A stretch of 64,000 nt of DNA from Lachnospiraceae bacterium UBA4631 (lineage in GTDB: Bacteria; Bacillota; Clostridia; Lachnospirales; Lachnospiraceae), in NCBI GenBank assembly GCA_002406015.1, contig DHMX01000023.1, positions 238,233-302,232 of the forward strand, given 5' to 3'. Positions 935 to 18,034 of the stretch are shown here, piece after piece. The notes below the pieces were generated by a model. It did not search any database. It saw only the letters and a program-made list of their open reading frames with translations, and had not been told where the DNA came from. The position numbers were made by a program, and so were the translations under genes. Every line of letters begins with the position of its first letter. The stretch's first letter is position 1.

Positions 935-983
935 ATGTAAATTAGTTATTGACCGTAAGAGATAAAAACCATATAATAAATTT

Positions 984-1235: not shown

Positions 1236-1244
1236 TGCAATAGT

Positions 1245-1271: not shown

Positions 1272-1286
1272 TGTAGGAGGTTATTT

Positions 1287-2363: not shown

Positions 2364-2404
2364 GTAATGTATAAATTAGTACTAATAACGAAAGGTATTG
2401 GATT

Positions 2405-2704
2405 ATGGCAAAGATTGAAACGGCATTTAGCTTGGAAATTAATGATTTTGTGGATGCAATAGAAGCCAACGAATTGTGGATGGAAGGAATATTAAAGGAT
2501 AAAAAGGCATTTATTTGTGTCGGAGAAAACTGTTATGCAGGAATTACATGTAAGAATATGGATACATTTGTGTCTGATAGAAAGAGGATTCCTCATTTTA
2601 TAATGTCTCAACATGAAAATATGCATAGTGATTCGTGTGAAGTATTTAGAGAGTTTTTAGAAAAAGATATAAACAGGAATAATACAAAAAAAAGAGAGAC
2701 ATAA
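2405..2704 (+). CDS. Hypothetical Cys/His-rich protein; probable 5' part of a gene split by a frameshift at an A8 run
   Basis: ORF with RBS-like AAAGG upstream. It contains CVGENCYAGITC...H...H..C (possible zinc ribbon). It ends 31 nt before the next ORF, whose frame is already open across the A8 run (2686-2693). Confidence 0.45.
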   Translation: MAKIETAFSLEINDFVDAIEANELWMEGILKDKKAFICVGENCYAGITCKNMDTFVSDRKRIPHFIMSQHENMHSDSCEVFREFLEKDINRNNTKKRET

Positions 2705-2735
2705 AGAAAAAGTAGGTAAAGAAATATGCTTTCAT

Positions 2736-3350
2736 ATGACACGACCTGAAAGGCATAAAATCATAGAGCATATACTACCGATGGGTCAAGCAAATAATTT
2801 TACTGAAATAAAGAAACAAATGAGAAGAAAACGGGATGATTCCCAAGAAAGAAAAACCAATTACTATTGTTTGAATTCGTTGGTTTGTTCATTTGTTAAT
2901 GCTTTAAGAAATGGAACCTTGTTTAAAGATGAAGTAACGGTAGAGTTTAAGAAAAATCAGTTTTATACATATAAATTGGGGTATTTGTTTAAAAGGATAG
3001 GGAGACAAAATGAAATTACAGATACGGACAAGTATCTATATGTTTATTTTGGCAAGGGGAAAGTATTTCAGAAGGAAAATGGCGGTTACAGTATAGTGTT
3101 CAGTGAGGCATTTAATGGTTCGACAAAGAAAGTAAAATGTGTATTAAGTGGCAATCTGATAGATGACTGTGGACATGGTAAAGCTAATAAGCTAAACATA
3201 TTGAATTCAGCTATTGGAAAAGAAAAATTTATATATATTTTTGCCACTAAAAACATAAGCGAAAAATACAATACTGTATATTTAAATGTGAAAAACCTAG
3301 ATTGTGTCGCGGTATCTGATATAGATATTGATGAAACAGATACTGAATAG
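2736..3350 (+). CDS. Hypothetical protein; probable 3' part of the same split gene
   Basis: No convincing RBS before ATG 2736. The reading frame is open back to 2673. No recognisable domain. Confidence 0.45.
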   Translation: MTRPERHKIIEHILPMGQANNFTEIKKQMRRKRDDSQERKTNYYCLNSLVCSFVNALRNGTLFKDEVTVEFKKNQFYTYKLGYLFKRIGRQNEITDTDKYLYVYFGKGKVFQKENGGYSIVFSEAFNGSTKKVKCVLSGNLIDDCGHGKANKLNILNSAIGKEKFIYIFATKNISEKYNTVYLNVKNLDCVAVSDIDIDETDTE

Positions 3351-3525
3351 AACAGATGAATGGGCAGTTGTTTTGACTACCTTTTTCTTCTTGGAATGAA
3401 GTTGGAACAGTTGTATAATTTTGTCGGGACAACATAAAAGTAATATTTTAGATAGACAATAGAAAGGTTGTGATTTCAAGAAAAATCAACTCAAATGCTA
3501 CACCTACACCCGTGCATCCACCTCC

Positions 3526-3738
3526 ATGCAGGTAGATGGATACAACTTAGATGTGCAGAAAGATAAATTTATCGTGTTGGATTATGGAACTGCTGATGAA
3601 AGAGTTTTCTTATGCGGGGCTTCATCAAAGGATGCAGGGGCTAGAATAACCAGTATTGTTGAAGATTATGGAACAGCCAAATACAACTCTGTTATTGCAG
3701 CATTATTGAAAAATTCACCTTTAGTATTACCAAAATAG
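3526..3738 (+). CDS. Hypothetical 70-aa ORF, possibly a C-terminal gene remnant
   Basis: No RBS seen and no domain recognised. It lies in a region with other decayed genes. Confidence 0.2.
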   Translation: MQVDGYNLDVQKDKFIVLDYGTADERVFLCGASSKDAGARITSIVEDYGTAKYNSVIAALLKNSPLVLPK

Positions 3739-3963
3739 GAGTGTGAGATAATTGATATAGGAAAAGTGACTTTTTTTAACATGGGTTCTGAATTAGATAG
3801 GATACAGTAAGGAAGGTATATGATAGACATTATCCTGTAAATATGTTAGTTTAAAAGAATAAGGCTGGTGCTCGGCTAAATAATATATATTGCCGTAAAC
3901 GTTGCACATAATGATAAAATCGGTGCATATTTTGCAGGTTGAACAGGAAAGAGAAAATAAATA

Positions 3964-5001
3964 ATGGGAATGTTAGTTCTATACTGGGTAATTATGTTTG
4001 TGACATATTTCTCGGCATCAAAGTTGAGATTATATCGTGATAAATTGACATTTCTTCCACATATTACTATGGGAATTGTATATGTCATTGTTTTGCTTAT
4101 GGGCTTGGGAATGGGTGCAAATAAGGAAGTTATAAATAACCTTGGAAGTATCGGCATTCGGGCATTTATCATTACAGTATTTTGTGTGGCTGGCAGTATG
4201 ATGGCTGTCTTTATTGTTCGTAAAATAATGGGGATGAACAGATTCGGAGATTTGAATAATACTCATAATAAAGAATTTGAAAGTGGAACTCATGGGGAAA
4301 AAGCTGACAACAAAAGTCATAATCTCCGAGGACTCAAAAGTACCCTTACGATTTTAGGATTGGTGACTGTTGGTAGCATCATTGGTATTGTTGTAATCCA
4401 AAGACAGCCGAATAACATTCTAAAAGAATTTGACAGGGTCAATAGTTCTATGATGACGGTATTGCTCTGTATCATGGTGGCATTTGTTGGGTTTGACCTC
4501 GGTTTGTCCGGAAAGGTTGCAGAGTGCTTAAAGGTAATTGGTATCCGGGCTTTTGTATTTCCGATAGCAGCAATAGTAGGCTCATTAGCAATGGGTGCTA
4601 TATCAGGATGCTGGCTCGGATTTTCTATCAGAGAGAGTTTGGCAATTAGTGCTGGATTTGGCTGGTATACCTATGCACCTGCGGTAATTGCAAGTGCCGG
4701 TGCTGAATATGCCGTGGCAAGTGCTGTGGCATTTATGTATAACATGATTCGGGAAACGGCATCTATTGTATTGCTTCCGGTATTTGCAAAACATTTTGGC
4801 TATTTGGAAGTGATAGCAATGCCCGGAATATCCTCAATGGATATTTGCTTGCCGATTATTGAAAGCTCCTGCCGGCAGGATACAGTTGTTTACGCTTTTC
4901 TTACAGGTTTTTATTATGAATATAGTCACATCGGTAGGTGTACCGTTTATTATGGGCATGTAATATACAGGGAGGATAAAAACGGAGCAGATTTGGATTG
5001 A
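3964..5001 (+). CDS. LysO-family (DUF340, YbjE-like) basic amino-acid exporter; 3' end apparently frameshifted
   Basis: Multi-TM protein. SAGFGWYTYAPAVI...PGISSMDICLPIIE...AFLTGF parallels E. coli YbjE (ASGFGWYSLSG...GATSMDFTLPVLQ...HGFILSLLVPILIAFF). After TGF the expected hydrophobic tail (IMNIVTSVGVPFIMGM, stop at 4961-4963) is in another frame. Confidence 0.7.
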   Translation: MGMLVLYWVIMFVTYFSASKLRLYRDKLTFLPHITMGIVYVIVLLMGLGMGANKEVINNLGSIGIRAFIITVFCVAGSMMAVFIVRKIMGMNRFGDLNNTHNKEFESGTHGEKADNKSHNLRGLKSTLTILGLVTVGSIIGIVVIQRQPNNILKEFDRVNSSMMTVLLCIMVAFVGFDLGLSGKVAECLKVIGIRAFVFPIAAIVGSLAMGAISGCWLGFSIRESLAISAGFGWYTYAPAVIASAGAEYAVASAVAFMYNMIRETASIVLLPVFAKHFGYLEVIAMPGISSMDICLPIIESSCRQDTVVYAFLTGFYYEYSHIGRCTVYYGHVIYREDKNGADLD

Positions 5002-5002
5002 T

Positions 5003-5356
5003 ATGTATAATGCTGCAAAGGAAGTATTGAGACCCCGTGTTATTTCTGAAATGATGGAGGCTGCTGTTGAATCTGTTTCCGGTAAAATCTATGTGGGGGA
5101 GTGTTGATGGTTCATGCACACTTGGAATTGTGCTGAGCGGAACGCAATCTTCAATATGATTACCAACGGTGAAAATGCAATTAGAAGGGTCGTTGCTGTA
5201 AATTGGGATGGAAAGGTTCTTGCACCATGCGGAGCTTGCCGTGAATTAATGCCCCAGCTTATGCCAAAAACTTATAAGAACATTGAAGTTATGATGGATT
5301 TTAATAACGAAAAAATCGTGACACTTGATGAATTAACCCTTGCATGGTGGATATAA
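5003..5356 (+). pseudogene. Cytidine/blasticidin-S deaminase-like gene interrupted by an in-frame TGA (5105-5107)
   Basis: MYNAAKEVL...SGKIYVGEC*WFMHTWNCAERNAIF...APCGACRELMPQL carries the CAE and PCGxCR zinc motifs of the CDA fold. The stop sits between the N-terminal part and the CAE motif. Confidence 0.6.
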
Positions 5357-5391
5357 CTGTATGTTGAAATGTAGTCAGGAGGCAAACCACA

Positions 5392-5832
5392 ATGATTAGA
5401 GAAGCCAACACCAATGATTTAGACGAAATCTTACAACTGTATTTGTATCTTCATGAGACAACAATTCCGGAAGCTTCCGAGCAGTTAAAAAATACATGGA
5501 ACAATATCATAAATGATGCCAATCATCATCTTATTGTTTGCGAAATTGACGGTAAGATTGTGGCATCCTGCGTATGCGTAATTATTCCTAACCTTACAAG
5601 AAATGTTCGCCCATATGCATTTGTAGAAAATGTAGTGACACATGGAGCATATCGGGAGAAAGGCTATGCAACCGCTTGCCTGAACTATGCGAAACAGCTT
5701 GCAGAGAAGCAGCATTGCTATAAAATGATGCTGCTTACCGGGTCAAAAGAGGAAAGTACATTAAATTTCTATCAAAATGCCGGATATAACAGTACAGATA
5801 AAACTGCATTTATACAATGGCTTGATATGTAA
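5392..5832 (+). CDS. GNAT-family N-acetyltransferase
   Basis: 146 aa. MIREANTNDLDEILQLY... and ENVVTHGAYREKGYATACLNYAKQLA (acetyl-CoA binding R/Q-x-x-G-x-G/A-like segment) are typical of GNAT. RBS AGGAGG upstream. Confidence 0.85.
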   Translation: MIREANTNDLDEILQLYLYLHETTIPEASEQLKNTWNNIINDANHHLIVCEIDGKIVASCVCVIIPNLTRNVRPYAFVENVVTHGAYREKGYATACLNYAKQLAEKQHCYKMMLLTGSKEESTLNFYQNAGYNSTDKTAFIQWLDM

Positions 5833-5978
5833 GAGACAGAGTACAAATAAATCTACTCCTATAAATTATAATAAAAACACAATACAAGACTTCTTATAGG
5901 GGTTATTGACTTTGCAGATTTCAAATGCTAAAATAAGCTTGCTTGTCAGAGGACTTGCAATCAAATAAGATTGTTGAA

Positions 5979-6050
5979 GTGGGATAAGACCATTTAGGGC
6001 TTTATCCCACTTTTGTTATAAAGCGGGATAAAGCTGAAAAAGCTTTATCC
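5979..6050 (+). promoter_or_regulatory. Two related hairpins upstream of the MATE gene (terminator-like, then an RBS-proximal hairpin); possible attenuator
   Basis: Hairpin 1: GTGGGATAA (5979-5987) / TTATCCCAC (6002-6010) followed by TTTT. Hairpin 2: GGATAAAGC (6026-6034) / GCTTTATCC (6042-6050). The 3' arm of hairpin 1 can alternatively pair with the 5' arm of hairpin 2. Confidence 0.4.
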
Positions 6051-6073
6051 TGTTTCAGTTATGGAGGTATTCT

Positions 6074-7396
6074 ATGAACGCAAAAACAAAATCCTTGTTT
6101 GGTTACATCTTTCCGGCATTAGGTGGTTTGTTTGTAACCTATCTTTACAACGTTGTTGACGGTATTTTTGTTGGGCAGGGCATTGGTTCTGCTGCATTAG
6201 GAGCTGTCAACATTGCAGTTCCGTTTATCACCTTTGTTGTGGCAATTGCAGCGATGCTGCCTATGGGCGGAGCAACGGTGGTCGCAATCAGAAAGGGACG
6301 AGGAGATAAAGAAGGGGCAAATCATGCATTTATGACCGCCTTTTCTCTGACCGTCCTGTTATCGGTTCTTTTAATGCTTGGGGGAATGGTATTTTCACAA
6401 CAGATTGTTAATGTAAGCGGAGCGAAAGACCTGAGTATGGAAATGCAGAAAATGTCCGCAGATTATTTGTTCTATTACTCTGCATTTTCGATTCCGATGC
6501 TTATGAGTACCTGTCTGTCGGTATTTGTTCGAAATGATGGCTCTCCAGTACTTGCCTTTGTGGGTATGTGTGTGGGTGCAGTAACAAATATCTTTTTAGA
6601 TTGGCTTTTCATCTTTCCGCTTAATATGGGTGTCATTGGTGCTGCGATTGCATCCGGGTTAGGGCAAGTTCTTTCTGTTCTGGTGCTGTTGTCCCATTTT
6701 GTGTTCAAAAAAGGTGAGCTGCGTATAATTCCGTTCAAAATTGACATTTCACTGATAACTAAGATTTGTAAGCGTGGTGTGCCGGAAGCGGTAACGCAGC
6801 TTACAACACCGGTTACCGCACTTTGCTATAATCTCATGCTGGCGAATTTAATCGGAGATATTGGCATATCGACATTCAGTGTATTAAACTTCATTTATTC
6901 TCTTGCAAACGCTATTTTTTCCGGTGTAGCACAAGGGCTGCAGCCGCTATGGGGGCAGTGCTACGGAAAGCAGAATACAGATGAAATGAAATGGTATTTC
7001 CGTAGCGGTATTATCATCAATAGTATTTTGTCAGTGCTGGTTTATGCCGGTCTGTACTTCTTCGATGTGCCGGTTATCCGCATTTTCAACCAAGAAGCAG
7101 AACTGGTACAGACAGCAACAGCAGCTTTGCCACTATTCAGCTTATCCTTTATCCCGATGGCTATAAATCTTATTTATACAGCATACCTTTTTTCTACAAA
7201 GAGAACAGGAGCGGCAGATATAATAGCCATCAGCAGAGGAGTTGTAGTAAAAGCAATTGCTATCTTTATCATTCCCAGCCTGTTTGGAGTTGATGCCATT
7301 TGGATTGCCCCATTTGTTGCGGAAGTTATTACACTTGTACTTGCAATCTTACTAAGTAAAACCAATCCGATTATAAATCAATCGTCAAAGCAATAA
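6074..7396 (+). CDS. MATE-family efflux transporter
   Basis: 440 aa, about 12 TM segments. The N-terminal IFPALGGLFVTYLYNVVDGIFVGQGIGSAALGAVNIAVP is characteristic of MATE/NorM-type pumps. Confidence 0.9.
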   Translation: MNAKTKSLFGYIFPALGGLFVTYLYNVVDGIFVGQGIGSAALGAVNIAVPFITFVVAIAAMLPMGGATVVAIRKGRGDKEGANHAFMTAFSLTVLLSVLLMLGGMVFSQQIVNVSGAKDLSMEMQKMSADYLFYYSAFSIPMLMSTCLSVFVRNDGSPVLAFVGMCVGAVTNIFLDWLFIFPLNMGVIGAAIASGLGQVLSVLVLLSHFVFKKGELRIIPFKIDISLITKICKRGVPEAVTQLTTPVTALCYNLMLANLIGDIGISTFSVLNFIYSLANAIFSGVAQGLQPLWGQCYGKQNTDEMKWYFRSGIIINSILSVLVYAGLYFFDVPVIRIFNQEAELVQTATAALPLFSLSFIPMAINLIYTAYLFSTKRTGAADIIAISRGVVVKAIAIFIIPSLFGVDAIWIAPFVAEVITLVLAILLSKTNPIINQSSKQ

Positions 7397-7406
7397 TTTC
7401 CTGTGC

Positions 7407-8384
7407 TTATTTATACATGTTAGTGGACAGATATTTCATTCCGTTATCCGCAAGAATTGCAACAATGGTTTTTCCTTCATTTTCCGGGCGGAGAGCAAGC
7501 TGCTTAGCCGCTGTTAACGCAGCCGCAGCAGAGGCACCCAGTAAAATACCATCGGATTGTGCGACCTCTCTGGCAGTAGCATAGCTATCCGCACCGGTTA
7601 CGTCGATGACCTCATCGTATTTAAAATTCCGTCTTACCACAAATGGATGCCGGCATCCCTCCGGTGTATCAAATCTTACAACACCGTCAATGGTATCCAC
7701 GTTATCACCGGGGCCGGACAGGGAATCCGGAGTCGGCTGAACTCCAACAATTTTAACCCCTTCAATATGTTCTTGCAGGTAAGTACCGATTCCTGCCAAG
7801 GTTCCGGCAGTACCGGCTAACATGACTGCAATATCAATTTTTCCGTCAGTATCGGCAACCAGCTCCGGTCCGGTGGTTTTGTAATGTGCCTGCGGATTTG
7901 CTTCATTTACCAGCTGTCCCATGTAGAAATATCCCTTTTCTTCTGCATACTTTGCAACCGCCGCCATAATCTTTACCACATCAAAGCCGTATTGTGCCAT
8001 AATCTCCTGTATGCCCGGAATTTCATCCAGGCCTCTCAAATCACAGCCATACGCTCTCATAATCTGTGTACGCTCCGGTGTGCATCCCGGCTCTTGATAT
8101 ATGATGGATTTATAGCCTCTTGCTGCACAAAAAGCAGCCAAAGCAATTCCGGTATTTCCGCTTGTGGTCTCTACAATGGTATCTCCCGGCTTTAGCAGAC
8201 CATCCCGTTCTGCCGCTTCAATCATTCCGAGAACCGCTCTGTCCTTTACACTTCCGGTAGGATTAAAATATTCCAGCTTCCCCAGAATCGTTGCTTTCAA
8301 GTCATTCTGTTTCTCAAAATTAACTAATTCCACTAACGGAGTCTTTCCAACAAGCTCCGTAATACTCTTATAAATATTAGCCAT
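7407..8384 (-). CDS. PLP-dependent cysteine synthase-family enzyme (CysK/CysM/CBS fold)
   Basis: GKTPLVEL...KLEYFNPTGSVKDRAVLGMIEAAERDGLLKPGDTIVETTSGNTGIALA...AGTAGTLAGIG shows the PLP lysine (SVKDR), Asn loop (TSGNTG) and Gly-rich phosphate loop. Confidence 0.85.
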   Translation of the reverse strand: MANIYKSITELVGKTPLVELVNFEKQNDLKATILGKLEYFNPTGSVKDRAVLGMIEAAERDGLLKPGDTIVETTSGNTGIALAAFCAARGYKSIIYQEPGCTPERTQIMRAYGCDLRGLDEIPGIQEIMAQYGFDVVKIMAAVAKYAEEKGYFYMGQLVNEANPQAHYKTTGPELVADTDGKIDIAVMLAGTAGTLAGIGTYLQEHIEGVKIVGVQPTPDSLSGPGDNVDTIDGVVRFDTPEGCRHPFVVRRNFKYDEVIDVTGADSYATAREVAQSDGILLGASAAAALTAAKQLALRPENEGKTIVAILADNGMKYLSTNMYK

Positions 8385-8447
8385 TGTTCATTCATCCTCT
8401 CTGTTTATCCATAAATATCTGTATATATCTGTGTGATTTCAGTTACA

Positions 8448-9242
8448 TCATCCGCATGACAAACCACCGTCCACAACAATAGAAGCCCCATTAATGAATT
8501 TTGCTTCGTCACTTGCCAGAAATAAAACCGCTCTTGAAATATCCGTTACCTCACCGCTTACGATGTGAGGGTCAAGGGATGCCAGAATGCGTTCTCTGCC
8601 AAATTCACTTTCCTCATAAAATGTACTGGACATATGCGTTTTGATTACACCCGGACATACCATATTGCTTCGGATTCCCTTGTGCATATATGCCCATGCC
8701 GTATGCTCACACAACCCGACAAGACCATGCTTTGCAACCGTATAGGCAACACTGGAACGCCCGCTTTTCAGTCCGGCAACCGATGCAATGGTAACGATAT
8801 TTCCGCCGCTTTCCTGTTCAAGCATCCGCTTAACCGCTTCCCGTATGGCGTACATCGGTCCGGTAAGGTCAACTGCAAGGATACGTTCCCAATCCTCATT
8901 TTCTGTTTCCGTAATCGGCTCGCTTCGTCCGGCAATTCCGGCATTATTTACCAGAATATCGATTTTTCCGGTCTTCTGTACGGCAAGCTCTATCATTTTT
9001 TCATTGGTTTCCTGCTTAGAAACATCTCCCACAAATGGAAGAAAACGAGAAACCAGTTCTTCATCATAATTTTGTTTGAGTTCAGCCTGATATGCCTTCA
9101 AAGTTGCCGCATTGATTTCTACGGCAACAACCGTCGCACCTGCCTTCAGAAAATCAAGTGTAATCTGTTTCCCCATTCCGGCACCGGCACCTGTCACAAC
9201 AACGCTTTTATGTTCAAATTGTAATATATGCTCTGTACTCAT
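8448..9242 (-). CDS. SDR-family oxidoreductase (classical short-chain dehydrogenase/reductase)
   Basis: VVVTGAGAGMGKQ cofactor motif, NNAG, and YTVAKHG (YxxxK catalytic motif). RBS GGGAGG 6 nt upstream. It lies 18 nt after the LanC-like stop. Confidence 0.9.
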   Translation of the reverse strand: MSTEHILQFEHKSVVVTGAGAGMGKQITLDFLKAGATVVAVEINAATLKAYQAELKQNYDEELVSRFLPFVGDVSKQETNEKMIELAVQKTGKIDILVNNAGIAGRSEPITETENEDWERILAVDLTGPMYAIREAVKRMLEQESGGNIVTIASVAGLKSGRSSVAYTVAKHGLVGLCEHTAWAYMHKGIRSNMVCPGVIKTHMSSTFYEESEFGRERILASLDPHIVSGEVTDISRAVLFLASDEAKFINGASIVVDGGLSCG

Positions 9243-9260
9243 ATGACACCTCCCATGTTG

Positions 9261-10622
9261 TTAGTTGTTCTGCTTTGTATCCAAAAATTCAAAAATCGGT
9301 GAGATTTTTGTTCCGGTCAATGCTCCATACAAGGTAAGCAATGCACTGGCGGCACCGGCACTTCCCATATACAGTCCGATGTGGGCATCTACATTCCATG
9401 GGATAACTCTGGTCCATGCATTGTACCATCTGGTTCCTTCGTTATTCTTATATGCATCGCCAACCAGCTTGTCGGCAACCCCGACTGCCGTTTTTTTGTA
9501 GTCCTCTTTTCCGGTTAATTGAATACCATCCACAAAGTGTAATAAAACACCGGCAGAACCGCAGCAAATACAATCATTCCAATATCCCGGTGAGCGTTTA
9601 TAGGTAACGCCTGCGGCTCTAAGGGCATTTGAAAGCCGTTCATAGAATTGTAAGTATTTTTTCTCCTTTGTTGCCTTGTATAGCTCCTTGGCAACAATTC
9701 CGTCTCCGGCAGGTCCGTGGCAGATGCTTAAATAGAAGACATCAAAGGTATCACTGCTGTCCGGCAAATACAGATACGGTACAATAGATGCATCCTCCGT
9801 ATTAATTGCGATATTAATAAGAAAATCAAAGCCTCTTTTGGCAATATCCAAATATTTCACATCACCGGTTGCCTCATAATATTTTGTCAGCAGATACACG
9901 ATTCCGGCAGTTCCATGGGCAAAATTAGGAAGAATGCCGCCTTCTGGAAGCTCTGGAAAATAATCATGAATATCAAAGAACTTCCAATAAGAAGTGCCGT
10001 CCGGAAGGTCTGTTTGAAATGTCAGAATATAATCCAGTAGCTGCTTTGCATAGCTTATGTACTTTGTATCGCCTGTGATGCCGGAAAGGTACAACCAGTA
10101 TGCTGCCGTACTTCCGTCACCCATGTAGTCGACAAATCCATCCCAATGAAGAAATCCGTTTTCCTTGACTGCTTTCTCATAGGCTATATCTGCAACCTTA
10201 ATTGCATAATCCCGATATTTGGCTTCTCCGGTTTTTTCAAATAATGCCTCTGCAAAAAAGCCTTCTCCGGTAATGCCGCCGTGGATTCCTGGTTTCACTC
10301 CAAGGTCATCATGAAATGAGTCCAGCAGATATTCCGCAGCCTGAACCGCTTCCTCAAAATACTTCTTTTCTCCGGTTGCTTCAAATAACTGTAAATAAAA
10401 ATATCCGACACCCGCAGCTCCGGAATAGATACTCCGGTCTGTCATTTTCTGAGCCAGCTCATCACCGTCTCCTTGTCCGGCACCACTGCTTATTTTCCAG
10501 CTTTTTCCGACCGACTTTTTTACTTCATATGCCTGTAACCATTTTGCAACATCAATTGCAACCTTCAAATAATCCTCCGGGGTATTTTGTTTATAAATAC
10601 TGATTAATTTATGCTCTGCCAT
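9261..10622 (-). CDS. Stand-alone LanC-like (lanthionine synthetase C-like) protein
   Basis: Repeated Gx(A/H)G barrel motifs: SGAAGVGYFY, NFAHGTAGIVY, SICHGPAGDG, CICCGSAGVL, YMGSAGAA. The start is placed at the second ATG (MAEHK), 9 nt after AAAGGAG; the track ORF starts at 10631. Confidence 0.7.
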   Translation of the reverse strand: MAEHKLISIYKQNTPEDYLKVAIDVAKWLQAYEVKKSVGKSWKISSGAGQGDGDELAQKMTDRSIYSGAAGVGYFYLQLFEATGEKKYFEEAVQAAEYLLDSFHDDLGVKPGIHGGITGEGFFAEALFEKTGEAKYRDYAIKVADIAYEKAVKENGFLHWDGFVDYMGDGSTAAYWLYLSGITGDTKYISYAKQLLDYILTFQTDLPDGTSYWKFFDIHDYFPELPEGGILPNFAHGTAGIVYLLTKYYEATGDVKYLDIAKRGFDFLINIAINTEDASIVPYLYLPDSSDTFDVFYLSICHGPAGDGIVAKELYKATKEKKYLQFYERLSNALRAAGVTYKRSPGYWNDCICCGSAGVLLHFVDGIQLTGKEDYKKTAVGVADKLVGDAYKNNEGTRWYNAWTRVIPWNVDAHIGLYMGSAGAASALLTLYGALTGTKISPIFEFLDTKQNN

Positions 10623-10797
10623 TTCACACATCTCCTTTTGTAAACGCTAACTTTATAACCTTGTTTTCATACTGAATTAATAGGGATTTGACTTGAAATC
10701 AGTATACAACCATGCATTTATTTTGTATAATCAATATATCCGATAGCGGATTATAGGAAAAAACTATAGCAGCCAGTATCAAAAGGAGGGGCATATT

Positions 10798-11853
10798 ATG
10801 GCAAAACGAAAAACGTTACCAAAGGACTTTGAACAATTAGTAAAGACTGGAAATGAACCGGACATTAAAAAAGTATTTGATAAATGTGACATTAATGCAT
10901 ACGGAGGGTATAACAAGGGAAATGCGTTTGAGTTTCTTATATCCGAAAGTATGATGCGATGGCTTTTGGAGCAGGGAGCAGACATTAATTATGTGGACAC
11001 ATATGGTTATACACCTTTGTTGTATCATGCAGGACACAAATATGCAGAAGAACAGGCAATTCAGTTGGTGAAACTCAATGCAGATATTTCAGCAACAGAG
11101 GTCTGGAATCATGAAACCGTTTTACATAGAGCTGTGTCTACAGGAAGTCTGAATCTGGTAAAGTGTCTTTTAGAGGCTGGAGCAGATGTGGGTGTAACGG
11201 ATGCAAATGGAAATACTCCGCTGGAATGTGCATTTCGAAATGCAATGACATTTGACTTGATTAAGTTGGAACCGGTTACGGTTTATTTGTTGTCACAGGG
11301 AATACCGGTAACAGAAAAATTACAGGGCTATATGCAGAAGGTTGCAGAGGATATTGAGTTTAGAAGAAAAGACCTGAATCCGGAAAATATAGAGGAACTG
11401 GATTGTGTAATGAAGCATTTATATGAGCTTTTGCATGTGAAACCGGTTCCGAGGCGGACATTGTTTGACGGAACAAGTGAAATTGAGATTCACGCAAAGA
11501 GCTGGCAGAAGCAACACAGTGAATTATGGAATTTGCTGGTGCCAGGCTCCGGTCATGCCGGAACCGTACAGGGAGAAGTTATACGAATTTCCGGAAAACT
11601 GGGGTATGAGCTGTTAGATAACGGAGGCATTAACTGGGATGCCGATTATGAAGAGTTAGCAAATGCGTTGTATAAGTATGTCTGCATGGGAACACCATTA
11701 TCATCCGATGAAGAGGAAGAGGTCCGCCACATAATTAAAATCATAAAAAATGCAGATGAAGATACCATAAATCGATTGACAGAGTTATCCGTAAAATGGG
11801 TGACGCTGAACCGAACTCCGATTAAAATCACGAAGGTAAATTACAGCAGATAA
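10798..11853 (+). CDS. Ankyrin-repeat protein
   Basis: GYTPLLYHAG...VLHRAVSTGSLNLVKCLLEAGADVGVTDANGNTPLECAF matches the ANK consensus (TPLH.A...G....V..LL..GAD.N..D..G.TPL). Confidence 0.8.
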   Translation: MAKRKTLPKDFEQLVKTGNEPDIKKVFDKCDINAYGGYNKGNAFEFLISESMMRWLLEQGADINYVDTYGYTPLLYHAGHKYAEEQAIQLVKLNADISATEVWNHETVLHRAVSTGSLNLVKCLLEAGADVGVTDANGNTPLECAFRNAMTFDLIKLEPVTVYLLSQGIPVTEKLQGYMQKVAEDIEFRRKDLNPENIEELDCVMKHLYELLHVKPVPRRTLFDGTSEIEIHAKSWQKQHSELWNLLVPGSGHAGTVQGEVIRISGKLGYELLDNGGINWDADYEELANALYKYVCMGTPLSSDEEEEVRHIIKIIKNADEDTINRLTELSVKWVTLNRTPIKITKVNYSR

Positions 11854-12000
11854 GTGTTAGAAGAGGGTATAATGTAACCAGAATGTAGCTATCAAGAATG
11901 TAAGGAAAACGTAAGAAATGTGATGCAGTTTTGATGCCGGTTTGTTACAATTCGGATGAATACTTTTGATACCTTGAAATCATAAGCAGGGGTGTGAAAA

Positions 12001-12825
12001 ATGGGAAGAAAAAGAACGCATTTTATCAGTCAATTACATAAAGATATAGAAGAAAAATGGATGGCAGAGCTGATAGCGGGTGTTTTGATTATTCTGTTGG
12101 TGGTTGCCTCCTTTTTAAACGGTCATGCGGGCTGGGAGTCTATGTGTCCCATTGTCGTTGTAAACGGTTGTGAGGTGCAGACACCGGAGGAGCGTCTGTT
12201 GACAGAGCTGAATCTGGCGGTAGACAGTTACATAAATGTCGGACAAATGATTAAAACGGCACCGTACTATACGAATGAAACCGCCTTGGCTACGGTAATG
12301 CAGTATGATGCGGTAATTGAGGCAGCAGCGGAAAAATATGGAGTCGATAAAGCCATGGTACAGTCTGTGCTGTTTCAGGAGCTTCGGTTCTATGGAATGG
12401 AGGACCCGGTAGCAGATTTGTATGTGCGTGCCTCTTATCAGTACGGACATCGGCAGGAGGAGCATGGAAAACCGCAGAATATGTCACTTTGCCGGCTGGA
12501 TTCTTCAACCGGTATGGGACAGGTGTTTGCAAAGACCGCAATAAAGGCACATAACTGGAAATACAATACAGCTTACAATCCGGATAATTGGGAGGATTTG
12601 GAATTGTTCTGGATGTATTTGCAGGAGGAGGAACAAAATATAGATACGGTAGCATTGGTATTGGCACATACCATGAGTGAACAGGAGGTCAGCGGGGAGC
12701 TGTCATTGGCGGAAACCGAGGCAGTGATGGCAAGATATAACGGTACGGGAGTCTGGGCGGCAAAATACGGTCAGGTTACGATACAGTATTATCAGGCATT
12801 TGTGGAATATAATCAAATGGATTGA
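12001..12825 (+). CDS. Membrane-anchored protein with a possible lytic transglycosylase (SLT-like) domain
   Basis: N-terminal TM helix. AAAEKYGVDKAMVQSVLFQELRF...SSTGMGQVFAKTAIKAHN loosely resembles the SLT E-S...GLMQ pattern. Weak call. Confidence 0.35.
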   Translation: MGRKRTHFISQLHKDIEEKWMAELIAGVLIILLVVASFLNGHAGWESMCPIVVVNGCEVQTPEERLLTELNLAVDSYINVGQMIKTAPYYTNETALATVMQYDAVIEAAAEKYGVDKAMVQSVLFQELRFYGMEDPVADLYVRASYQYGHRQEEHGKPQNMSLCRLDSSTGMGQVFAKTAIKAHNWKYNTAYNPDNWEDLELFWMYLQEEEQNIDTVALVLAHTMSEQEVSGELSLAETEAVMARYNGTGVWAAKYGQVTIQYYQAFVEYNQMD

Positions 12826-12879
12826 CGAAAGCACAAAATTCGATTATGATTAACGTTAGCGTTTTACAGGAGAAATAAC

Positions 12880-14253
12880 ATGAATAATCGAAATGAAATT
12901 TATAAGAAGGCTCTGCTTCTTGCAGTTCCTATGATGGTTCAGAACGGAATTACGAATGCGGTAAGTCTGGTCGATAACCTGATGGTAGGCAGATTGGGAA
13001 CAGAGAGTATGACGGCTGTCTCCATTGTGGGACAGTTGATTTTTGTTTTTAACTTAGCTATATTTGGTGGACTTTCCGGACCCGGAATTTATGGAGCACA
13101 GTATTACGGACAAGGAAATATAAAAGGCTTCCAGAATATTTTCCGTTTAAAGTTCTGGATATGCCTGCTGTGTACGCTGGTGGGAATGCTTATCTTTATA
13201 TTTGGCGGTACATCCCTAATCGGCTTATATCTGCATGGAACAACCGGAGATATTAATCCGGACGCAACCTTGCAATATGGTTTGGAATACCTTCATATCA
13301 TGTTAATCGGATTGCTCCCGTTTGCAGTTACGCAGATATATGCGAGCAGCCTCCGGGAAACAGGAGAGAGCTTTAAGCCAATGGTTGCCGGCATTATATC
13401 GGTGCTGGTGGACGTGGTCTTTAACTATTTTCTGATATATGGAACCTTTGGCTTCCCAAGACTGGAGGTTCGGGGGGCGGCAATTGCAACGGTACTTGCC
13501 AGATTTGTAGAAATGTCGGTTGTTGTAATATGGTCGCATGCAAAAAGAAAGGAACACACATTTTTAAAAGGTATTTACCGGACACTATGGGTGCCGCTGC
13601 ATGAAATGCAGGTGGTAATCCGAAAGGGAATCCCTATTTTCTTAAACGAATTTTTATGGGCAGGCGGCATGGCGGCATTAACCCAGTGCTATTCCATTCG
13701 CGGACTTCAGATAGTTGCGGGACTGAATATATCAAATGCAATCTGTAATCTTTTAAATGTGGTATTTGTAGCCATGGGAAATGCAGTCGGTATCATTATC
13801 GGGCAATATCTGGGAGCGTCAAAGTTTGATGAGGCAAAGAAAAACTCCATGCGGCTGATGTGGTTTACCGGTGCGATGTGTCTGTTGCTGACAGGGATTT
13901 TAGTTCTATGTGCAAAAGGCTTTCCACTTCTGTATGATACAACAGCAGAGGTTCAGAATCTCGGACGATGGTTCATTGTAATTACGGCATTGTTTTTCCC
14001 GTTGCAGGGATTCTTAAATGTACTGTATTTTACATTACGCTCCGGCGGAAAAACCGGAATCACGTTTTTGTTTGACAGCGTATTTACATGGGTGATACCG
14101 GTGCCGATGGCATTTCTGTTATCATCCTTTACGGCACTGCCGATTCTGGGCGTGTATGCAATTGTGCAGAGTGCAGATATGATTAAGGTAATTGTTGGAT
14201 ACATTCTGGTAAAGAAGGGTGTCTGGATTACGAATCTGGTAGATGCAGAATAG
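12880..14253 (+). CDS. MATE-family efflux transporter (second copy)
   Basis: 457 aa polytopic protein. ALLLAVPMMVQNGITNAVSLVDNLMVGRLGTESMTAVSIVGQ is a typical MATE N-terminus. Confidence 0.9.
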   Translation: MNNRNEIYKKALLLAVPMMVQNGITNAVSLVDNLMVGRLGTESMTAVSIVGQLIFVFNLAIFGGLSGPGIYGAQYYGQGNIKGFQNIFRLKFWICLLCTLVGMLIFIFGGTSLIGLYLHGTTGDINPDATLQYGLEYLHIMLIGLLPFAVTQIYASSLRETGESFKPMVAGIISVLVDVVFNYFLIYGTFGFPRLEVRGAAIATVLARFVEMSVVVIWSHAKRKEHTFLKGIYRTLWVPLHEMQVVIRKGIPIFLNEFLWAGGMAALTQCYSIRGLQIVAGLNISNAICNLLNVVFVAMGNAVGIIIGQYLGASKFDEAKKNSMRLMWFTGAMCLLLTGILVLCAKGFPLLYDTTAEVQNLGRWFIVITALFFPLQGFLNVLYFTLRSGGKTGITFLFDSVFTWVIPVPMAFLLSSFTALPILGVYAIVQSADMIKVIVGYILVKKGVWITNLVDAE

Positions 14254-14375
14254 ATAAATAATATAGAAACAATAGCAATCGTAAAAATCAAGATAAGCTA
14301 TAGTAAAAATCTATAGCAGGTCATAGGTATAACGTATTTTTCAAATTCCTAGTAAAACAGTATAATATATCCGAG

Positions 14376-15098
14376 GTGATGAAATTGAAACAGATATTAT
14401 GCTTTGGAGATTCAAATACATATGGTTATATTCCGGAGAGTGGAAAACGGTATCCTTGGGGAGTCCGTTGGACCAGTTTGCTGAATGAAAAATTAGGCGT
14501 TGACAAATATCATATTATAGAAGAAGGACTGTGCGGAAGAACGACAGTGTATGAGGACGCAGTTCGGGAAAACCGCAACGGAAGTAAACTGTTTCCGGCT
14601 GTGTTAGAGACAGCAGGAGCCACAGATTTGATTATTCTGATGCTGGGAACTAATGACTGCAAGCAGGTATACCACGCTTCTGCAAAGGAAATTGGGGAAG
14701 GAATCCGTACATTGCTCCGGCAGGCACATAGATACGCAGAGCATACACCGGTTTTGCTGGTGTCACCGATTCATTTGGGAAGCCGGGTATGGGAAGACGG
14801 CTATGACCCGGAATTTTCGAAGGAATCGGTTCAGGTATCCAAAGAGCTGGAAGCCGTATATCAGGGCATTGCAAAGGAAGAGGGTGCGTATTTTCTGGCA
14901 GCATCCCGGTATGCACACGCCAGTTCCGTAGACGAGGAGCATTTAAATGAAGCCGGACACCGCTTGCTGGCAGATGCGATTTATAGTAAAGTAATAGATA
15001 TATTGCAGCCGGATTTGACAATCTGCCGGCTGTGGGAATATCTGGAGGAAATACAGGATGAAGAACGACAGGAGAAAAGAAGGCGAAAAGTGGTATAA
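14376..15098 (+). CDS. SGNH/GDSL-family hydrolase
   Basis: ILCFGDSNTYGY (block I, catalytic Ser), GTNDC (block III) and a DEEHLNEAGH-type block V. The likely true start is TTG 14385, 8 nt after GAGG. Confidence 0.85.
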   Translation: MMKLKQILCFGDSNTYGYIPESGKRYPWGVRWTSLLNEKLGVDKYHIIEEGLCGRTTVYEDAVRENRNGSKLFPAVLETAGATDLIILMLGTNDCKQVYHASAKEIGEGIRTLLRQAHRYAEHTPVLLVSPIHLGSRVWEDGYDPEFSKESVQVSKELEAVYQGIAKEEGAYFLAASRYAHASSVDEEHLNEAGHRLLADAIYSKVIDILQPDLTICRLWEYLEEIQDEERQEKRRRKVV

Positions 15099-15810
15099 GG
15101 AGCCGACCATTCGAATTGCGTTGCAAAAGGCACTGCCGATTATGGGAAGTTATTTCTTTGTCAGCATGGCATATGGTCTGGTGATGCAGGAGGCAGGATT
15201 TTCGTGGCTTTGGTCCTTTCTAATCAGCCTGACGATATATACAGGTGCGTATCAATTTGTACTGGTTACACTGTTGAGTACGGGAGCTTCTGTGGTAACC
15301 ATTGCTCTGACTGCACTGCTGATGAACAGCAGGCAGTTTTTTTATGGTCTCACCTTTGTGGAGGATTTTCGGACAATGGGGAAGCGGTATCCGTACATGG
15401 TAGCTACGATGACGGATGAAACCTATGCTGTAAATTGTGCAATGCTGGCAACCACGGGAGCATTATCGGAGGATAATCGGAAAACGATTATGTTCTATGT
15501 AGCTGTATTTTGTAAAAGCTCCTGGTTAATCGGTTCGGTTCTCGGCGGAATTGCAGGACAATTGGTGCCGGTACAATTAGAAGGAATTGATTTTTGCATG
15601 ACGGCATTATTTGTAACGATATTAATTGACCAGTGGAAAGCAAGCCGGATTCATTTGCCGGCAATACTGGGGGCTGGCTGTGGAATTGGTCTGTTGCTGC
15701 TGGTAGGAGCGGACCGGTTTATGCTTCCTGCACTTTTACTGGTAGCCGGATTGTTGTTATTGTTTGAATCCAGAATAAAAAAAGCAGAGGGAGGAAATGC
15801 ACATGAATGA
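15058..15810 (+). CDS. azlC: AzlC-family branched-chain amino acid exporter subunit
   Basis: ALPIMGSYFFVSMAYGLVMQEAGFSWLWSFLISLTIYTGAYQFV is typical of AzlC. It overlaps the upstream gene by 41 nt and the azlD-like gene by 14 nt. Confidence 0.8.
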   Translation: MKNDRRKEGEKWYKEPTIRIALQKALPIMGSYFFVSMAYGLVMQEAGFSWLWSFLISLTIYTGAYQFVLVTLLSTGASVVTIALTALLMNSRQFFYGLTFVEDFRTMGKRYPYMVATMTDETYAVNCAMLATTGALSEDNRKTIMFYVAVFCKSSWLIGSVLGGIAGQLVPVQLEGIDFCMTALFVTILIDQWKASRIHLPAILGAGCGIGLLLLVGADRFMLPALLLVAGLLLLFESRIKKAEGGNAHE

Positions 15811-16123
15811 AAAAATGTGTCTGGTCGGAATCCTGGCGGCTGCGTTATGTACATTGCTGATGCGGGCATTACCGTTTACCCTGCTTGGAAAGAAGAAAGA
15901 GATACCCCCTAAGATTCAATATCTGGGACGAATACTGCCACCTGCAATCATGGCGGTATTGGTAATCTATTGCCTGCGGGATGTAACCACAGACCTAATG
16001 GGAAACGGAATCCGGGAGCTGGCGGCAGTCGGTGTCTGTGTCGGTGTGCATCTATGGAAAAAGAATACATTAATCAGTATTTTTGCCAGCACAGCCGTAT
16101 ATATGCTGTTAAAACTTTTCTAA
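15797..16123 (+). CDS. azlD: AzlD-family branched-chain amino acid transport protein
   Basis: 108-aa hydrophobic protein immediately downstream of, and overlapping, azlC. Confidence 0.7.
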   Translation: MHMNEKMCLVGILAAALCTLLMRALPFTLLGKKKEIPPKIQYLGRILPPAIMAVLVIYCLRDVTTDLMGNGIRELAAVGVCVGVHLWKKNTLISIFASTAVYMLLKLF

Positions 16124-16148
16124 TATATAGGAAGAGGGAGACAAAAAA

Positions 16149-18008: not shown

Positions 18009-18034
18009 TTCGGTAGAAACAGGAAGGAGAATGA

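What the first reader, a model, noticed from the sequence alone, without database searches (positions are those of the whole stretch)
7407..10622. Operon pairing a stand-alone LanC-like protein with an SDR and a CysK-family PLP enzyme; no lanthipeptide precursor or dehydratase nearby
**Seen in sequence**
- Three co-directional genes with 18-nt and 63-nt gaps, each with its own RBS.
- The LanC-like protein has the AHG, CHG and C-C-G (CICCGSAG) motifs. The third zinc-ligand pair appears to be Cys-Cys rather than the usual Cys-His.
- No LanB/LanM/LanKC-type dehydratase gene, short precursor ORF or ABC exporter is visible within about 5 kb.

**Established knowledge**
- LanC and LanCL proteins catalyse thiol addition to dehydroalanine-type acceptors.
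- CysK/CBS-fold PLP enzymes generate an aminoacrylate intermediate. In Fusobacterium, a CysK-family enzyme makes free L-lanthionine from cysteine.

**Inference**
- The operon may make or process a free thioether amino acid (lanthionine-like) or a small-molecule thiol adduct, rather than a ribosomal lanthipeptide.
- The SDR would supply a redox step.
Basis: partly seen in the sequence, partly recalled or inferred. Interest (0 to 1): 0.6.

Follow-up and report, generated by a model that had tools for sequence, protein, structure and literature searches.

The report
LanC-like/CysK-like methionine-regulon sulfur module
A zinc "lanthionine-cyclase-like" protein, a dehydrogenase and a divergent cysteine-synthase-like enzyme form a conserved operon in gut and rumen Lachnospiraceae. 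It sits behind a methionine-regulon control site and has no antibiotic-peptide genes, so it probably marks an undescribed sulfur amino-acid pathway.

Summary
Three co-directional minus-strand genes encode:
- a LanC-fold protein (9261-10622);
- an NAD-type SDR (8448-9242);
- a CysK-fold PLP enzyme (7407-8384).

**Not a lanthipeptide locus.** I found no dehydratase, precursor ORF or peptide exporter in the window or in about 45 related loci. Searches of the whole genome for LanB and LanM domains were also empty, but their controls were silent.

**The LanC/CysK-like pair is the conserved core.**
- In 35 of 35 informative Lachnospiraceae loci the two genes lie within two genes of each other on one strand.
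- Gene order varies between loci.
- The two proteins diversify together (Mantel r = 0.82).
- The SDR is present in about a third of loci.

**New here: a control site.** A 17-bp palindrome, TATAG-N7-CTATA, lies about 110-120 nt upstream of the operon. It resembles the streptococcal MetR/MtaR "MET box". It is conserved upstream of the pair in about 30 of 42 loci. In this genome the same motif also precedes the cystathionine-lyase/PatB, MetY and MetNIQ genes.

**Most likely function.** This is a small-molecule thiol/thioether module of the methionine/homocysteine regulon. Its substrates are unknown.

**Main rival.** The LanC-like protein could be a regulatory partner of the PLP enzyme, like LanCL1 with CBS in mammals.

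I found no paper describing this pairing.

The parts
9261..10622 (-). Stand-alone LanC-like zinc protein, 453 aa from ATG 10622. The ORF lister starts it at 10631, and residue numbers in this report use that 456-aa numbering. Predicted metal ligands are C304, C356 and C357, with C354 giving a CxCCG motif. H239 sits in FAHG.
   Evidence: PF05147 89 bits. LanM cyclase-domain model 106 bits. AF2 pLDDT 91, with top PDB folds all LanC/LanCL/LanM/LanL. Conserved cysteines. RBS spacing.
8448..9242 (-). Classical short-chain dehydrogenase/reductase. It has TGAGAGMG, NNAG and the S154-Y167-K171 residues. An acidic residue at the end of strand beta-2 suggests NAD(H) preference. Orthologues accompany the pair in about a third of loci.
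   Evidence: adh_short_C2 192 bits. No NCBIfam model reaches its cut-off. Orthologue alignment. Nearest solved structures are generic SDRs. Synteny.
7407..8384 (-). Divergent CysK/beta-substituted-alanine-synthase-fold PLP enzyme. It keeps K47, the TSGNTG loop, Q157, GTAGT and S285. It has a 12-residue insert and remodelled active-site entrance loops: QEPGCTPER replaces MPETMSVER, and DTIDGVVRF replaces HKIQGIGAGF.
   Evidence: PALP 220 bits. cysKM model 265 bits, below its 344 cut-off. Alignment against the genome's other CysK paralogues. AF2 pLDDT 89, with top folds OASS, beta-cyanoalanine synthase and S-methylcysteine synthase.
10752..10768 (.). MET-box-like palindrome. It reads TATAGTTTTTTCCTATA on the operon strand. 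Its centre is about 66 nt upstream of the inferred transcription start. It is a probable LysR (MetR/MtaR-type) activator site.
   Evidence: 13 of 16 specified positions match the streptococcal MET box TATAGTTTnAAACTATA (PMC2627894). It is one of only 9 strict sites in the 2.59-Mb genome; others precede CGL-PatB, MetY and MetN. It is conserved 28-175 nt upstream of the LanC/SDR/PALP block in 28 related loci, against 0.3 expected.
10701..10729 (-). Promoter-like hexamers, TATACA-17 nt-TATACT, for the operon.
   Evidence: Consensus scan, 9 of 12 matches. This is a pattern match only. Aligned upstream regions of relatives show the same -10-like element.
10738..10751 (.). Second short palindrome, ATCCGCTATCGGAT, between the MET-box-like site and the promoter. 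Its role is unknown.
   Evidence: Read directly from the sequence and listed as a hairpin. It is not conserved in relatives.

Best explanation
The operon is a conserved small-molecule sulfur module of the methionine/homocysteine regulon of Lachnospiraceae. It is not a lanthipeptide system.

**Shown**
- The fold and ligand residues of each of the three proteins.
- An obligate, co-diversifying LanC/CysK-like gene pair.
- A shared MET-box-like operator with methionine uptake and transsulfuration genes.

**Inferred mechanism**
- When methionine is limiting, a MetR-like LysR activator switches the operon on.
- The CysK-like enzyme forms a PLP-aminoacrylate from O-acetylserine, serine or cysteine. 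It then makes or exchanges a C-S bond with sulfide, cysteine, homocysteine or another thiol.
- The LanC-like protein uses its Zn(Cys)3 site to bind a free thiol or thioether as a thiolate. It catalyses a reversible Michael-type addition or elimination on the substrate or product of the PLP enzyme.
- Where present, the NAD-dependent SDR makes or removes the carbonyl that activates that chemistry.

**Net role**
The module moves sulfur into, or recycles it within, the cysteine/homocysteine/methionine pool.
For: **Identity of the proteins**
- LanC fold with invariant C304, C356 and C357.
- The CysK-like enzyme keeps all PLP catalytic residues but has altered entrance loops. It is one of five CysK-fold paralogues in the genome, so it is a specialised copy.

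**Linkage of the pair**
- In 35 of 35 distinct loci with enough flanking sequence, LanC lies within two genes of the PLP gene on the same strand. In 31 of 35 it is adjacent.
- Gaps range from -53 to 155 nt, with 4-nt ATGA overlaps in L011 and L064.
- Gene order is shuffled: LanC-SDR-PALP, SDR-LanC-PALP, LanC-PALP-SDR, PALP-LanC.
- Canonical CysK genes have no LanC beside them (L053, L054).
- The three LanC clades map onto the PALP clades; Mantel r = 0.82, with 0 of 2000 permutations as high.

**Sulfur context**
- PatB-family C-S lyase (445 bits, above its cut-off), a cystathionine gamma-lyase/synthase-family gene, MetY, LysR, Rrf2 and IscS/IscU recur next to the pair in all three clades.

**Regulation**
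- The MET-box-like palindrome lies upstream of the block in about 30 of 42 loci.
- In this genome it also lies upstream of CGL-PatB, MetY and MetNIQ.
- The consensus matches the published MetR/MtaR site.

**No peptide machinery**.
Against: - No substrate is identified and nothing here shows catalysis by the LanC-like protein.
- The general-acid histidine (H239) is kept only in clade A. Clades B and C have FE[YF]G at that position.
- The LanC partner evolves much faster than the PLP enzyme: 28% against 66% identity between clades. That would also fit an accessory or regulatory subunit.
- In this genome the operon sits apart from the main sulfur island on contig C15.
- The MET-box assignment rests on sequence resemblance and genomic position only; no binding data exist.
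- One lineage (L006/L007) carries a broken PLP gene beside intact LanC and SDR genes.
- A fourth LanC type in the same genus has no PLP gene beside it.
Confidence: 0.5

Rival explanations
1. The LanC-like protein is a non-catalytic or thiol-sensing partner that binds and tunes the CysK-like enzyme. This would be the bacterial counterpart of mammalian LanCL1 binding and inhibiting cystathionine beta-synthase in a glutathione-dependent way.
For: - The gene pair is obligate and adjacent, with translational coupling in some loci.
- The two proteins co-diversify.
- The LanC partner evolves fast and loses the catalytic-type histidine in two clades, while the metal cysteines stay.
- The LanCL1-CBS interaction is reported in the literature (Zhong et al. 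2012, as cited in PMC5247676).
- CysK enzymes are known to be regulated through protein partners such as CysE and CymR (my own knowledge).
Against: - No interaction data exist, and a complex prediction was not possible with these tools.
- No LanC-PALP fusion of about 780 aa appears among the 120 listed of 140 homologues.
- The frequent NAD-dependent SDR is easier to explain as a pathway step.
- L006/L007 keep LanC and SDR with a broken PLP gene.
- Conserved non-ligand residues (R408, W163, W351, W402 and several Tyr) suggest a conserved substrate pocket.
Confidence: 0.22
2. This is LanCL-type damage control. The LanC-like protein adds a low-molecular-weight thiol, such as cysteine made by the paired enzyme, to dehydroalanine or dehydrobutyrine residues in damaged proteins or peptides, or to other cellular electrophiles. 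The SDR and a neighbouring MATE pump then process or export the adducts.
For: - The closest solved folds include LanCL1 bound to GSH and a Dhb peptide.
- MATE efflux genes flank the operon here and lie near it in L009.
- A distant Granulicella homologue lies next to gamma-glutamyltranspeptidase and C-S lyase genes.
Against: - Control by a methionine-limitation-type operator fits sulfur acquisition better than thiol consumption.
- MATE genes are not conserved neighbours.
- The tight pairing with one particular divergent CysK paralogue is not explained.
Confidence: 0.08
3. This is an orphan lanthipeptide or other RiPP cyclase whose dehydratase and precursor are encoded elsewhere.
For: It belongs to the LanC family and has the CCG motif typical of promiscuous LanM cyclase domains.
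Against: - No LanB or LanM domain was found in the whole genome. The searches' controls were silent, so this is weak evidence.
- There is no conserved short ORF or Cys/Ser/Thr-rich peptide upstream in 45 loci.
- No protease or ABC exporter is present.
- The conserved partner is a PLP enzyme, and the conserved operator is shared with methionine genes.
Confidence: 0.03
4. It is a misnamed (alpha/alpha)6-barrel carbohydrate enzyme of GH88 or GH127 type. A public record names one homologue a GH88 protein.
For: - Secondary Pfam hits to GH88 (51 bits), GH76 and GH127.
- One NCBI record names a 66%-identical homologue 'glycoside hydrolase family 88 protein'.
- GH127 uses a Cys3-Glu zinc site with adjacent cysteines (my own knowledge).
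Against: - LANC_like is the best Pfam hit.
- Fold search ranks LanC/LanCL/LanM first (TM 0.6-0.7) and GH76/GH88 lower (0.45-0.5). No GH127 structure appears in the top 50.
- No carbohydrate-utilisation genes are conserved nearby.
Confidence: 0.02

Closest known systems
Eukaryotic LanCL1/LanCL2 (stand-alone LanC-like proteins; glutathione addition to dehydroamino acids; LanCL1-CBS interaction)
   Same: - Stand-alone LanC fold with no peptide-dehydratase partner, among the best structural matches.
- A functional link to a fold-type-II PLP enzyme of the CysK/CBS family. In mammals this is a reported protein interaction (PMC5247676). Here it is an operon pairing.
   Different: - About 18% identity.
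- The metal site is Cys-Cys-Cys (CxCCG), not Cys-Cys-His.
- The hosts are strict anaerobes, which as far as I know do not make glutathione.
- The pairing is genetic and sits under a methionine-type operator.
- An SDR often accompanies it.
Lanthipeptide cyclases: NisC/MadC (class I) and the cyclase domains of LanM (ProcM 'CCG' type) and LanL (CuvL)
   Same: - Same fold and the same positions of the metal ligands.
- The CCG variant is known in ProcM/SyncM-type LanM and is visible in CuvL.
   Different: - No dehydratase, kinase/lyase domain, leader or core peptide, protease or exporter anywhere near.
- NCBIfam scores are far below the LanM/LanL/LanKC cut-offs.
- There is an extra conserved cysteine, C354.
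- The acid/base histidine is not conserved across the family.
CysK/beta-substituted alanine synthase family (O-acetylserine sulfhydrylase, CysM, MccA/CBS-type cystathionine synthases, Fusobacterium lanthionine synthase, S-methylcysteine and beta-cyanoalanine synthases)
   Same: - Same fold, PLP lysine, Asn loop, phosphate loop and pyridine-N serine.
- 35-39% identity to solved OASS structures.
   Different: - Scores fall below every NCBIfam equivalog cut-off.
- It has a 12-residue insert and rebuilt entrance loops.
- It forms its own clade, which always travels with a LanC-like gene.
- Its nucleophile and leaving group are unknown.
MtaR/MetR MET-box regulon of streptococci (LysR-type activation of methionine transport and synthesis genes)
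   Same: - A 17-bp palindrome with TATAG...CTATA arms and an A/T-rich centre, at an activator-like position.
- It precedes metNIQ-type transporter, MetY and transsulfuration genes.
- LysR genes lie next to many of these loci.
   Different: - Different bacterial class (Clostridia).
- The local consensus is TATAGCTTTTA[C/G]CTATA.
- The regulator is not identified experimentally.
- LanC-like and CysK-like genes are not, to my knowledge, members of the streptococcal regulon.

Membership tests
LanC / LanC-like superfamily (PF05147) | Double (alpha/alpha) toroid fold of LanC | tested here: met
   AF2 model with pLDDT 91 and pTM 0.92. Top Foldseek PDB hits are MadC, LanCL2, LanCL1, CuvL, LicM2 and NisC. 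PF05147 scores 89 bits against a cut-off of 23.
LanC / LanC-like superfamily (PF05147) | Three zinc ligands at the conserved positions (Cys, Cys, His or Cys) | tested here: met
   C304, C356 and C357 are invariant in 40 homologues and at least 95% conserved in the 48 pair-linked LanC sequences. They align with the FCQG and QCCG motifs of CuvL. This is the Cys3 'CCG' variant. Metal content itself cannot be tested here.
LanC / LanC-like superfamily (PF05147) | Conserved active-site histidine (GxAHG; general acid/base) | tested here: inconclusive
   It is present in this protein (H239, FAHGTAG) and in clade A. Clades B and C, which are also linked to the PLP enzyme, have FE[YF]G instead.
Lanthipeptide cyclase system (classes I-IV) | A partner dehydratase (LanB, LanM, or LanKC/LanL kinase-lyase) and a precursor peptide gene | tested here: not met
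   None in the window's flanks. No PF04738 or PF13575 hit in the whole genome, with the caveat that the controls were silent. None in about 45 related loci, and no conserved short ORF upstream.
O-acetylserine sulfhydrylase CysK/CysM (TIGR01139, TIGR01138, TIGR01136) | PLP lysine, TSGNTG Asn loop, Gly-rich phosphate loop, Ser at the pyridine N | tested here: met
   K47, T74-G79, G191-T195 (GTAGT) and S285 are invariant in the clade. The fold matches OASS structures with TM about 0.8.
O-acetylserine sulfhydrylase CysK/CysM (TIGR01139, TIGR01138, TIGR01136) | Score above the curated family cut-off, and canonical substrate-entrance loops (MPxxMS, KIQGIGAGF) | tested here: not met
   cysKM scores 265 against 344, cysK 243 against 351, and CysM 225 against 394. 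The loops are replaced by QEPGCTPER and DTIDGVVRF, and there is a 12-residue insert.
Classical SDR | TGxxxGxG, NNAG and the Ser-Tyr-Lys catalytic residues | tested here: met
   adh_short_C2 scores 192 bits. T17-G24, N99-G102, S154, Y167 and K171 are invariant in 14 orthologues. An acidic residue at the end of beta-2 points to NAD preference.
MetR/MtaR-type MET-box regulon | A 17-bp palindrome of MET-box type upstream of the operon and of methionine genes in the same genome | tested here: met
   There are 9 strict sites in the genome. Five lie upstream of operons: LanC, GDSL-AzlCD, CGL-PatB, MetY and MetNIQ. Twenty-nine of 43 relaxed hits in 678 kb of related loci lie 28-175 nt upstream of the LanC/SDR/PALP block, against 0.3 expected.
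MetR/MtaR-type MET-box regulon | Binding by a LysR regulator and induction on methionine limitation | not testable with these tools
   The runs found were stored as assembled contigs only and give no usable expression information. A LysR gene lies next to CGL-PatB in this genome and next to the pair in 10 loci.
GH88 / GH127 glycoside hydrolases | Best sequence and fold match to the GH family | tested here: not met
   GH88 scores 51 bits and GH127 28 bits, against 89 bits for LANC_like. In the fold search GH76/GH88 reach TM 0.45-0.5, against 0.6-0.7 for LanC proteins.

The most novel reading that the evidence does not exclude
The partnership between a LanC-like protein and a CysK/CBS-fold enzyme may be ancient and conserved from anaerobic bacteria to mammals. 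On this reading, the reported LanCL1-CBS interaction is the remnant of an operon-encoded two-protein unit. The original job of stand-alone LanC-like proteins would then be zinc-thiolate chemistry, or sensing, on free cysteine, homocysteine or thioether amino acids within methionine/cysteine metabolism. Peptide cyclisation would be a later specialisation.
Probability: 0.18. Interest if true: 0.85.

Novelty: new variant of a known kind. Interest (0 to 1): 0.68.

Why it matters
**An open question becomes testable.** What stand-alone LanC-like proteins do is not settled. For LanCL1 in mammals, glutathione transfer, CBS regulation and lanthionine-ketimine binding have all been proposed. Most bacterial stand-alone copies have no assigned function. 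Here the protein is locked to one specialised cysteine-synthase-like enzyme, behind a methionine-type operator, in culturable gut and rumen commensals. That gives a simple bacterial system with two or three soluble proteins and defined sulfur sources for testing LanC-like chemistry on small molecules.

**Relevance to gut sulfur metabolism.** It may also reveal an unrecognised route of sulfur amino-acid acquisition or recycling in Lachnospiraceae. That bears on H2S, methanethiol and methionine economy in the gut and rumen.

**Annotation.** Public names for this family are unreliable. Examples are 'lantibiotic modifying enzyme' and 'glycoside hydrolase family 88 protein'.

Tried and rejected
- **Riboswitch or T-box control.** No Rfam match at E <= 0.1 in window 1-20000. 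Among eight related loci the only hit is a T-box in L017. Its specifier is UGG (Trp), and it belongs to an upstream ABC transporter; the MET-box-like site lies after that transporter.
- **Cys-rich leader mini-ORF.** No conserved Cys-rich or precursor-like short ORF lies upstream in 45 Lachnospiraceae loci.
- **SDR + LanC as a substitute for a missing S-ribosylhomocysteine or SAH cleavage enzyme.** LuxS and a MetH-type gene are present and only SAH hydrolase is absent, so there is no gap to fill.
- **Natural LanC-PALP fusions.** None of about 780 aa among the 120 listed of 140 homologues. The one chimeric 334-aa ORF (P0085) looks like a deletion or an assembly artefact.
- **Expression evidence from public runs.** The holders are stored as assembled contigs only. 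They show a conserved 3.4-kb block with variable flanks but nothing about transcription.
- **Conserved non-sulfur neighbours.** Ankyrin, radical SAM and MATE genes near several loci are not homologous between loci.
- **Literature.** Seven searches found no paper on a LanC-like/CysK-like pairing.
- **The palindrome ATCCGCTATCGGAT.** It is not conserved in relatives.

Full report
**1. What is there**

Window positions 7407-10631 hold three co-directional minus-strand ORFs, with gaps of 18 and 63 nt.
- Each ORF has its own Shine-Dalgarno sequence.
- No intrinsic terminator stands out inside the block.
- The first gene most likely starts at ATG 10622. AAGGAG lies 9 nt upstream of that codon, and the 97%-identical homologue is 453 aa.

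Pfam assigns the three genes as follows.

| Gene | Family | Score |
|---|---|---|
| 9261-10622 | LANC_like | 89 bits |
| 8448-9242 | classical SDR | 192 bits |
| 7407-8384 | PALP fold | 220 bits |

The flanks are unrelated:
- a convergent MATE pump (6074-7396);
- a divergent ankyrin-repeat gene (10798-11853);
- no LanB, LanM or LanKC gene, no protease and no ABC exporter.

**2. The three proteins**

*LanC-like protein.*
- The AF2 model has pLDDT 91. It matches MadC, LanCL2, LanCL1, CuvL, LicM2 and NisC ahead of any glycoside hydrolase. The GH88 name that one public record gives a homologue is therefore a misnomer.
- C304, C356 and C357 are invariant (numbering from the 10631 ORF).
- The third ligand is Cys, not His. 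This is the 'CCG' variant known from ProcM-type LanM (PMC10027976), and it is visible in the alignment to CuvL.
- A fourth cysteine, C354 (giving CxCCG), is conserved in the pair-linked clades. So are R408 and several Trp and Tyr residues.
- The FAHG histidine is kept only in clade A.

*PLP enzyme.*
- It keeps the catalytic lysine, the Asn loop, the phosphate loop and the serine at the pyridine nitrogen.
- It scores below every CysK, CysM and CBS cut-off.
- It has a 12-residue insert and rebuilt entrance loops compared with the canonical CysK copies of the same genome.
- Its model matches OASS and other beta-substituted-alanine synthases.

*SDR.*
- It is a generic classical SDR with an NAD-type acidic residue at the end of strand beta-2.
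- Its nearest solved relatives are uninformative. They do include ElxO and hydroxypropyl-CoM dehydrogenases.

**3. Conservation**

I collected related loci in three ways.
- Homologues of the LanC-like protein led to contigs in which the three genes recur in different orders: LanC-PALP-SDR, SDR-LanC-PALP, and PALP-LanC-LanC2.
- Searching species genomes with the PLP enzyme gave 40 loci, almost all labelled Lachnospiraceae: Wujia, Coprococcus, Butyrivibrio, and gut and rumen MAGs.
- I then clustered all neighbouring ORFs across these loci.

The results were:
- There are 44 distinct PLP orthologues at 50% identity or more.
- In 35 of the 35 loci with 1.5 kb or more on both sides, a LanC-like gene lies within two genes on the same strand. 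In 31 of these it is adjacent.
- The LanC and PLP genes overlap by 4 nt in L011 and L064.
- An SDR orthologue is present in 13 of the 35.
- Canonical CysK genes lack a LanC neighbour.

The LanC partner diverges fast. Where the PLP enzyme is 66% identical and the SDR 64-68%, LanC is only 27-29% identical. Even so, the three LanC clades map onto the PLP clades, with Mantel r = 0.82 and 0 of 2000 permutations as high. The two genes have therefore been inherited together for a long time.

The wider stand-alone LanC-like family is modest in size: 146 representative clusters at E <= 1e-30.

**4. Context**

Genes that recur beside the pair in all three clades:
- a PatB-family C-S lyase (445 bits, above its cut-off);
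- a cystathionine gamma-lyase/synthase-family gene;
- MetY;
- a LysR regulator, present in 10 loci;
- Rrf2 and IscS/IscU;
- in some loci, a nitrogenase-like NifHDK/NifB cluster that contains another CysK paralogue.

In this genome those sulfur genes form an island on contig C15, away from the window.

**5. Regulation (new here)**

Aligning the upstream regions revealed a conserved 17-bp palindrome. In the window it lies at 10752-10768 and reads TATAGTTTTTTCCTATA. That is about 110-120 nt before the LanC start codon and about 66 nt before the start implied by the promoter-like TATACA-17-TATACT.

It resembles the streptococcal MET box, TATAGTTTnAAACTATA, which is the site of the LysR regulator MtaR/MetR (PMC2627894). 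The match is 13 of 16 specified positions.

The strict form, TATAG-N7-CTATA, occurs nine times in the 2.59-Mb genome. Five of these lie upstream of operons:
- this operon;
- a GDSL-AzlC-AzlD-radical-SAM operon (window 14299-14315);
- CGL-PatB on C15, next to a LysR gene;
- MetY;
- a MetN-type methionine ABC importer.

In 678 kb of related loci the relaxed motif occurs 43 times.
- Twenty-nine hits lie 28-175 nt upstream of the first gene of the LanC/SDR/PALP block, where 0.3 would be expected by chance. These hits fall in all three clades.
- Most of the remaining intergenic hits precede cystathionine-lyase, MetY or PatB genes.
- In L017 the site precedes PatB-SDR-PALP-LanC.

No riboswitch or T-box serves the operon. 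I found no Cys-rich leader ORF.

**6. Interpretation**

The evidence excludes a lanthipeptide locus with high confidence. It places the LanC/CysK-like pair in a MetR-like methionine/homocysteine regulon.

The most economical mechanism is inferred, not shown:
- The PLP enzyme performs a beta-replacement or exchange on an aminoacrylate intermediate.
- The LanC-like protein uses a Zn(Cys)3 site to handle a free thiol or thioether by reversible Michael-type chemistry.
- The SDR supplies an NAD-dependent oxidation or reduction in some lineages.

Zn(Cys)3 sites with adjacent cysteines activate homocysteine in MetH and BHMT. NAD-dependent oxidation followed by elimination and Michael addition of homocysteine is how SAH hydrolase works. 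Both statements come from my own knowledge and are offered only as chemical precedent.

The main rival is a LanCL1-CBS-like regulatory complex (PMC5247676). Three observations would fit it: the fast evolution of LanC, the loss of the histidine in two clades, and the translational coupling.

Two observations caution against strict interdependence of the two genes:
- L006/L007 carry a broken PLP gene beside intact LanC and SDR genes.
- A fourth LanC type in the same genus has no PLP gene beside it.

**7. Novelty**

Seven literature searches found no description of this pairing. That is a lead, not independent evidence.

Noticed in passing
window 14299-14315 (and genes 14376-17054): A second strict MET-box-like palindrome, TATAGTAAAAATCTATA, lies 60 nt upstream of a tight four-gene operon: GDSL-type esterase, AzlC, AzlD and a 301-aa radical SAM protein resembling an activating enzyme. 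The operon may belong to the same methionine regulon. AzlCD-family proteins include amino-acid exporters.
   Followed up: partly
window 10798-11853: An ankyrin-repeat gene is transcribed divergently from the operon. Its start codon is only 29 nt from the MET-box-like site. In contigs of closely related strains, positions 10860-11871 are replaced by about 1.1 kb of other sequence, while the three-gene block is kept at about 97-98% identity.
   Followed up: partly
L006 and L007, 8395-9280: In one widely sampled lineage the CysK-like gene has an internal deletion and frameshift that removes residues of about 60-88, including the TSGNTG loop. The LanC-like and SDR genes stay intact. The close relative L022 has the intact gene.
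   Followed up: yes
own genome contig C15, about 26900-40000 (outside the window): A sulfur island carries nitrogenase-like NifK/NifD, a CysK-like paralogue, NifH-like and NifB-like genes, then canonical CysK, LysR, PatB, a cystathionine lyase/synthase gene and a second LysR. The same nitrogenase-like cluster with an embedded CysK paralogue recurs in L023, L029, L041 and L048. It recalls the nitrogenase-like methylthio-alkane reductases (my own knowledge) and was not analysed further.
   Followed up: partly
L017 69-360: A T-box leader (105 bits) whose specifier reads UGG (Trp) lies upstream of an ABC transporter. That transporter precedes the PatB-SDR-PALP-LanC operon. It is probably a tryptophan-transporter T-box unrelated to the pair.
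   Followed up: partly
protein P0085 (one Logan contig): A 334-aa ORF joins the N-terminal 90 or so residues of a CysK-like enzyme to the C-terminal 240 or so residues of a LanC-like protein. It is probably an in-frame deletion between adjacent genes or an assembly artefact, not a true fusion.
   Followed up: partly
L059-L061 (same-genus genomes G001, G002, G008): A fourth type of stand-alone LanC-like gene (26-31% identity) has no CysK-like or SDR gene nearby. It lies after HAD-hydrolase and thioesterase genes. Downstream lies an Fe-ADH-like/aminotransferase/amino-acid ABC operon, which is preceded by a GC-rich TATAGCC...GGCTATA hairpin.
   Followed up: partly
L014 (Granulicella sp.): A distant 505-aa LanC-like homologue (34% identity) in an acidobacterium sits between a gamma-glutamyltranspeptidase gene and two Cys/Met-metabolism PLP genes. 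It is another sulfur-type context for a stand-alone LanC-like protein in a different phylum.
   Followed up: no
window 5114-5356: An 80-aa ORF matches only the C-terminal half of a cytidine/dCMP deaminase zinc-binding domain (24 bits, below the cut-off). It is probably a gene fragment.
   Followed up: no
own genome C30:2749-2830 and C18:58918-58960 (outside the window): Tandem 13-nt repeats of the form TATAAT...CTATA produced false hits for the relaxed palindrome pattern. Their nature is unknown.
   Followed up: no
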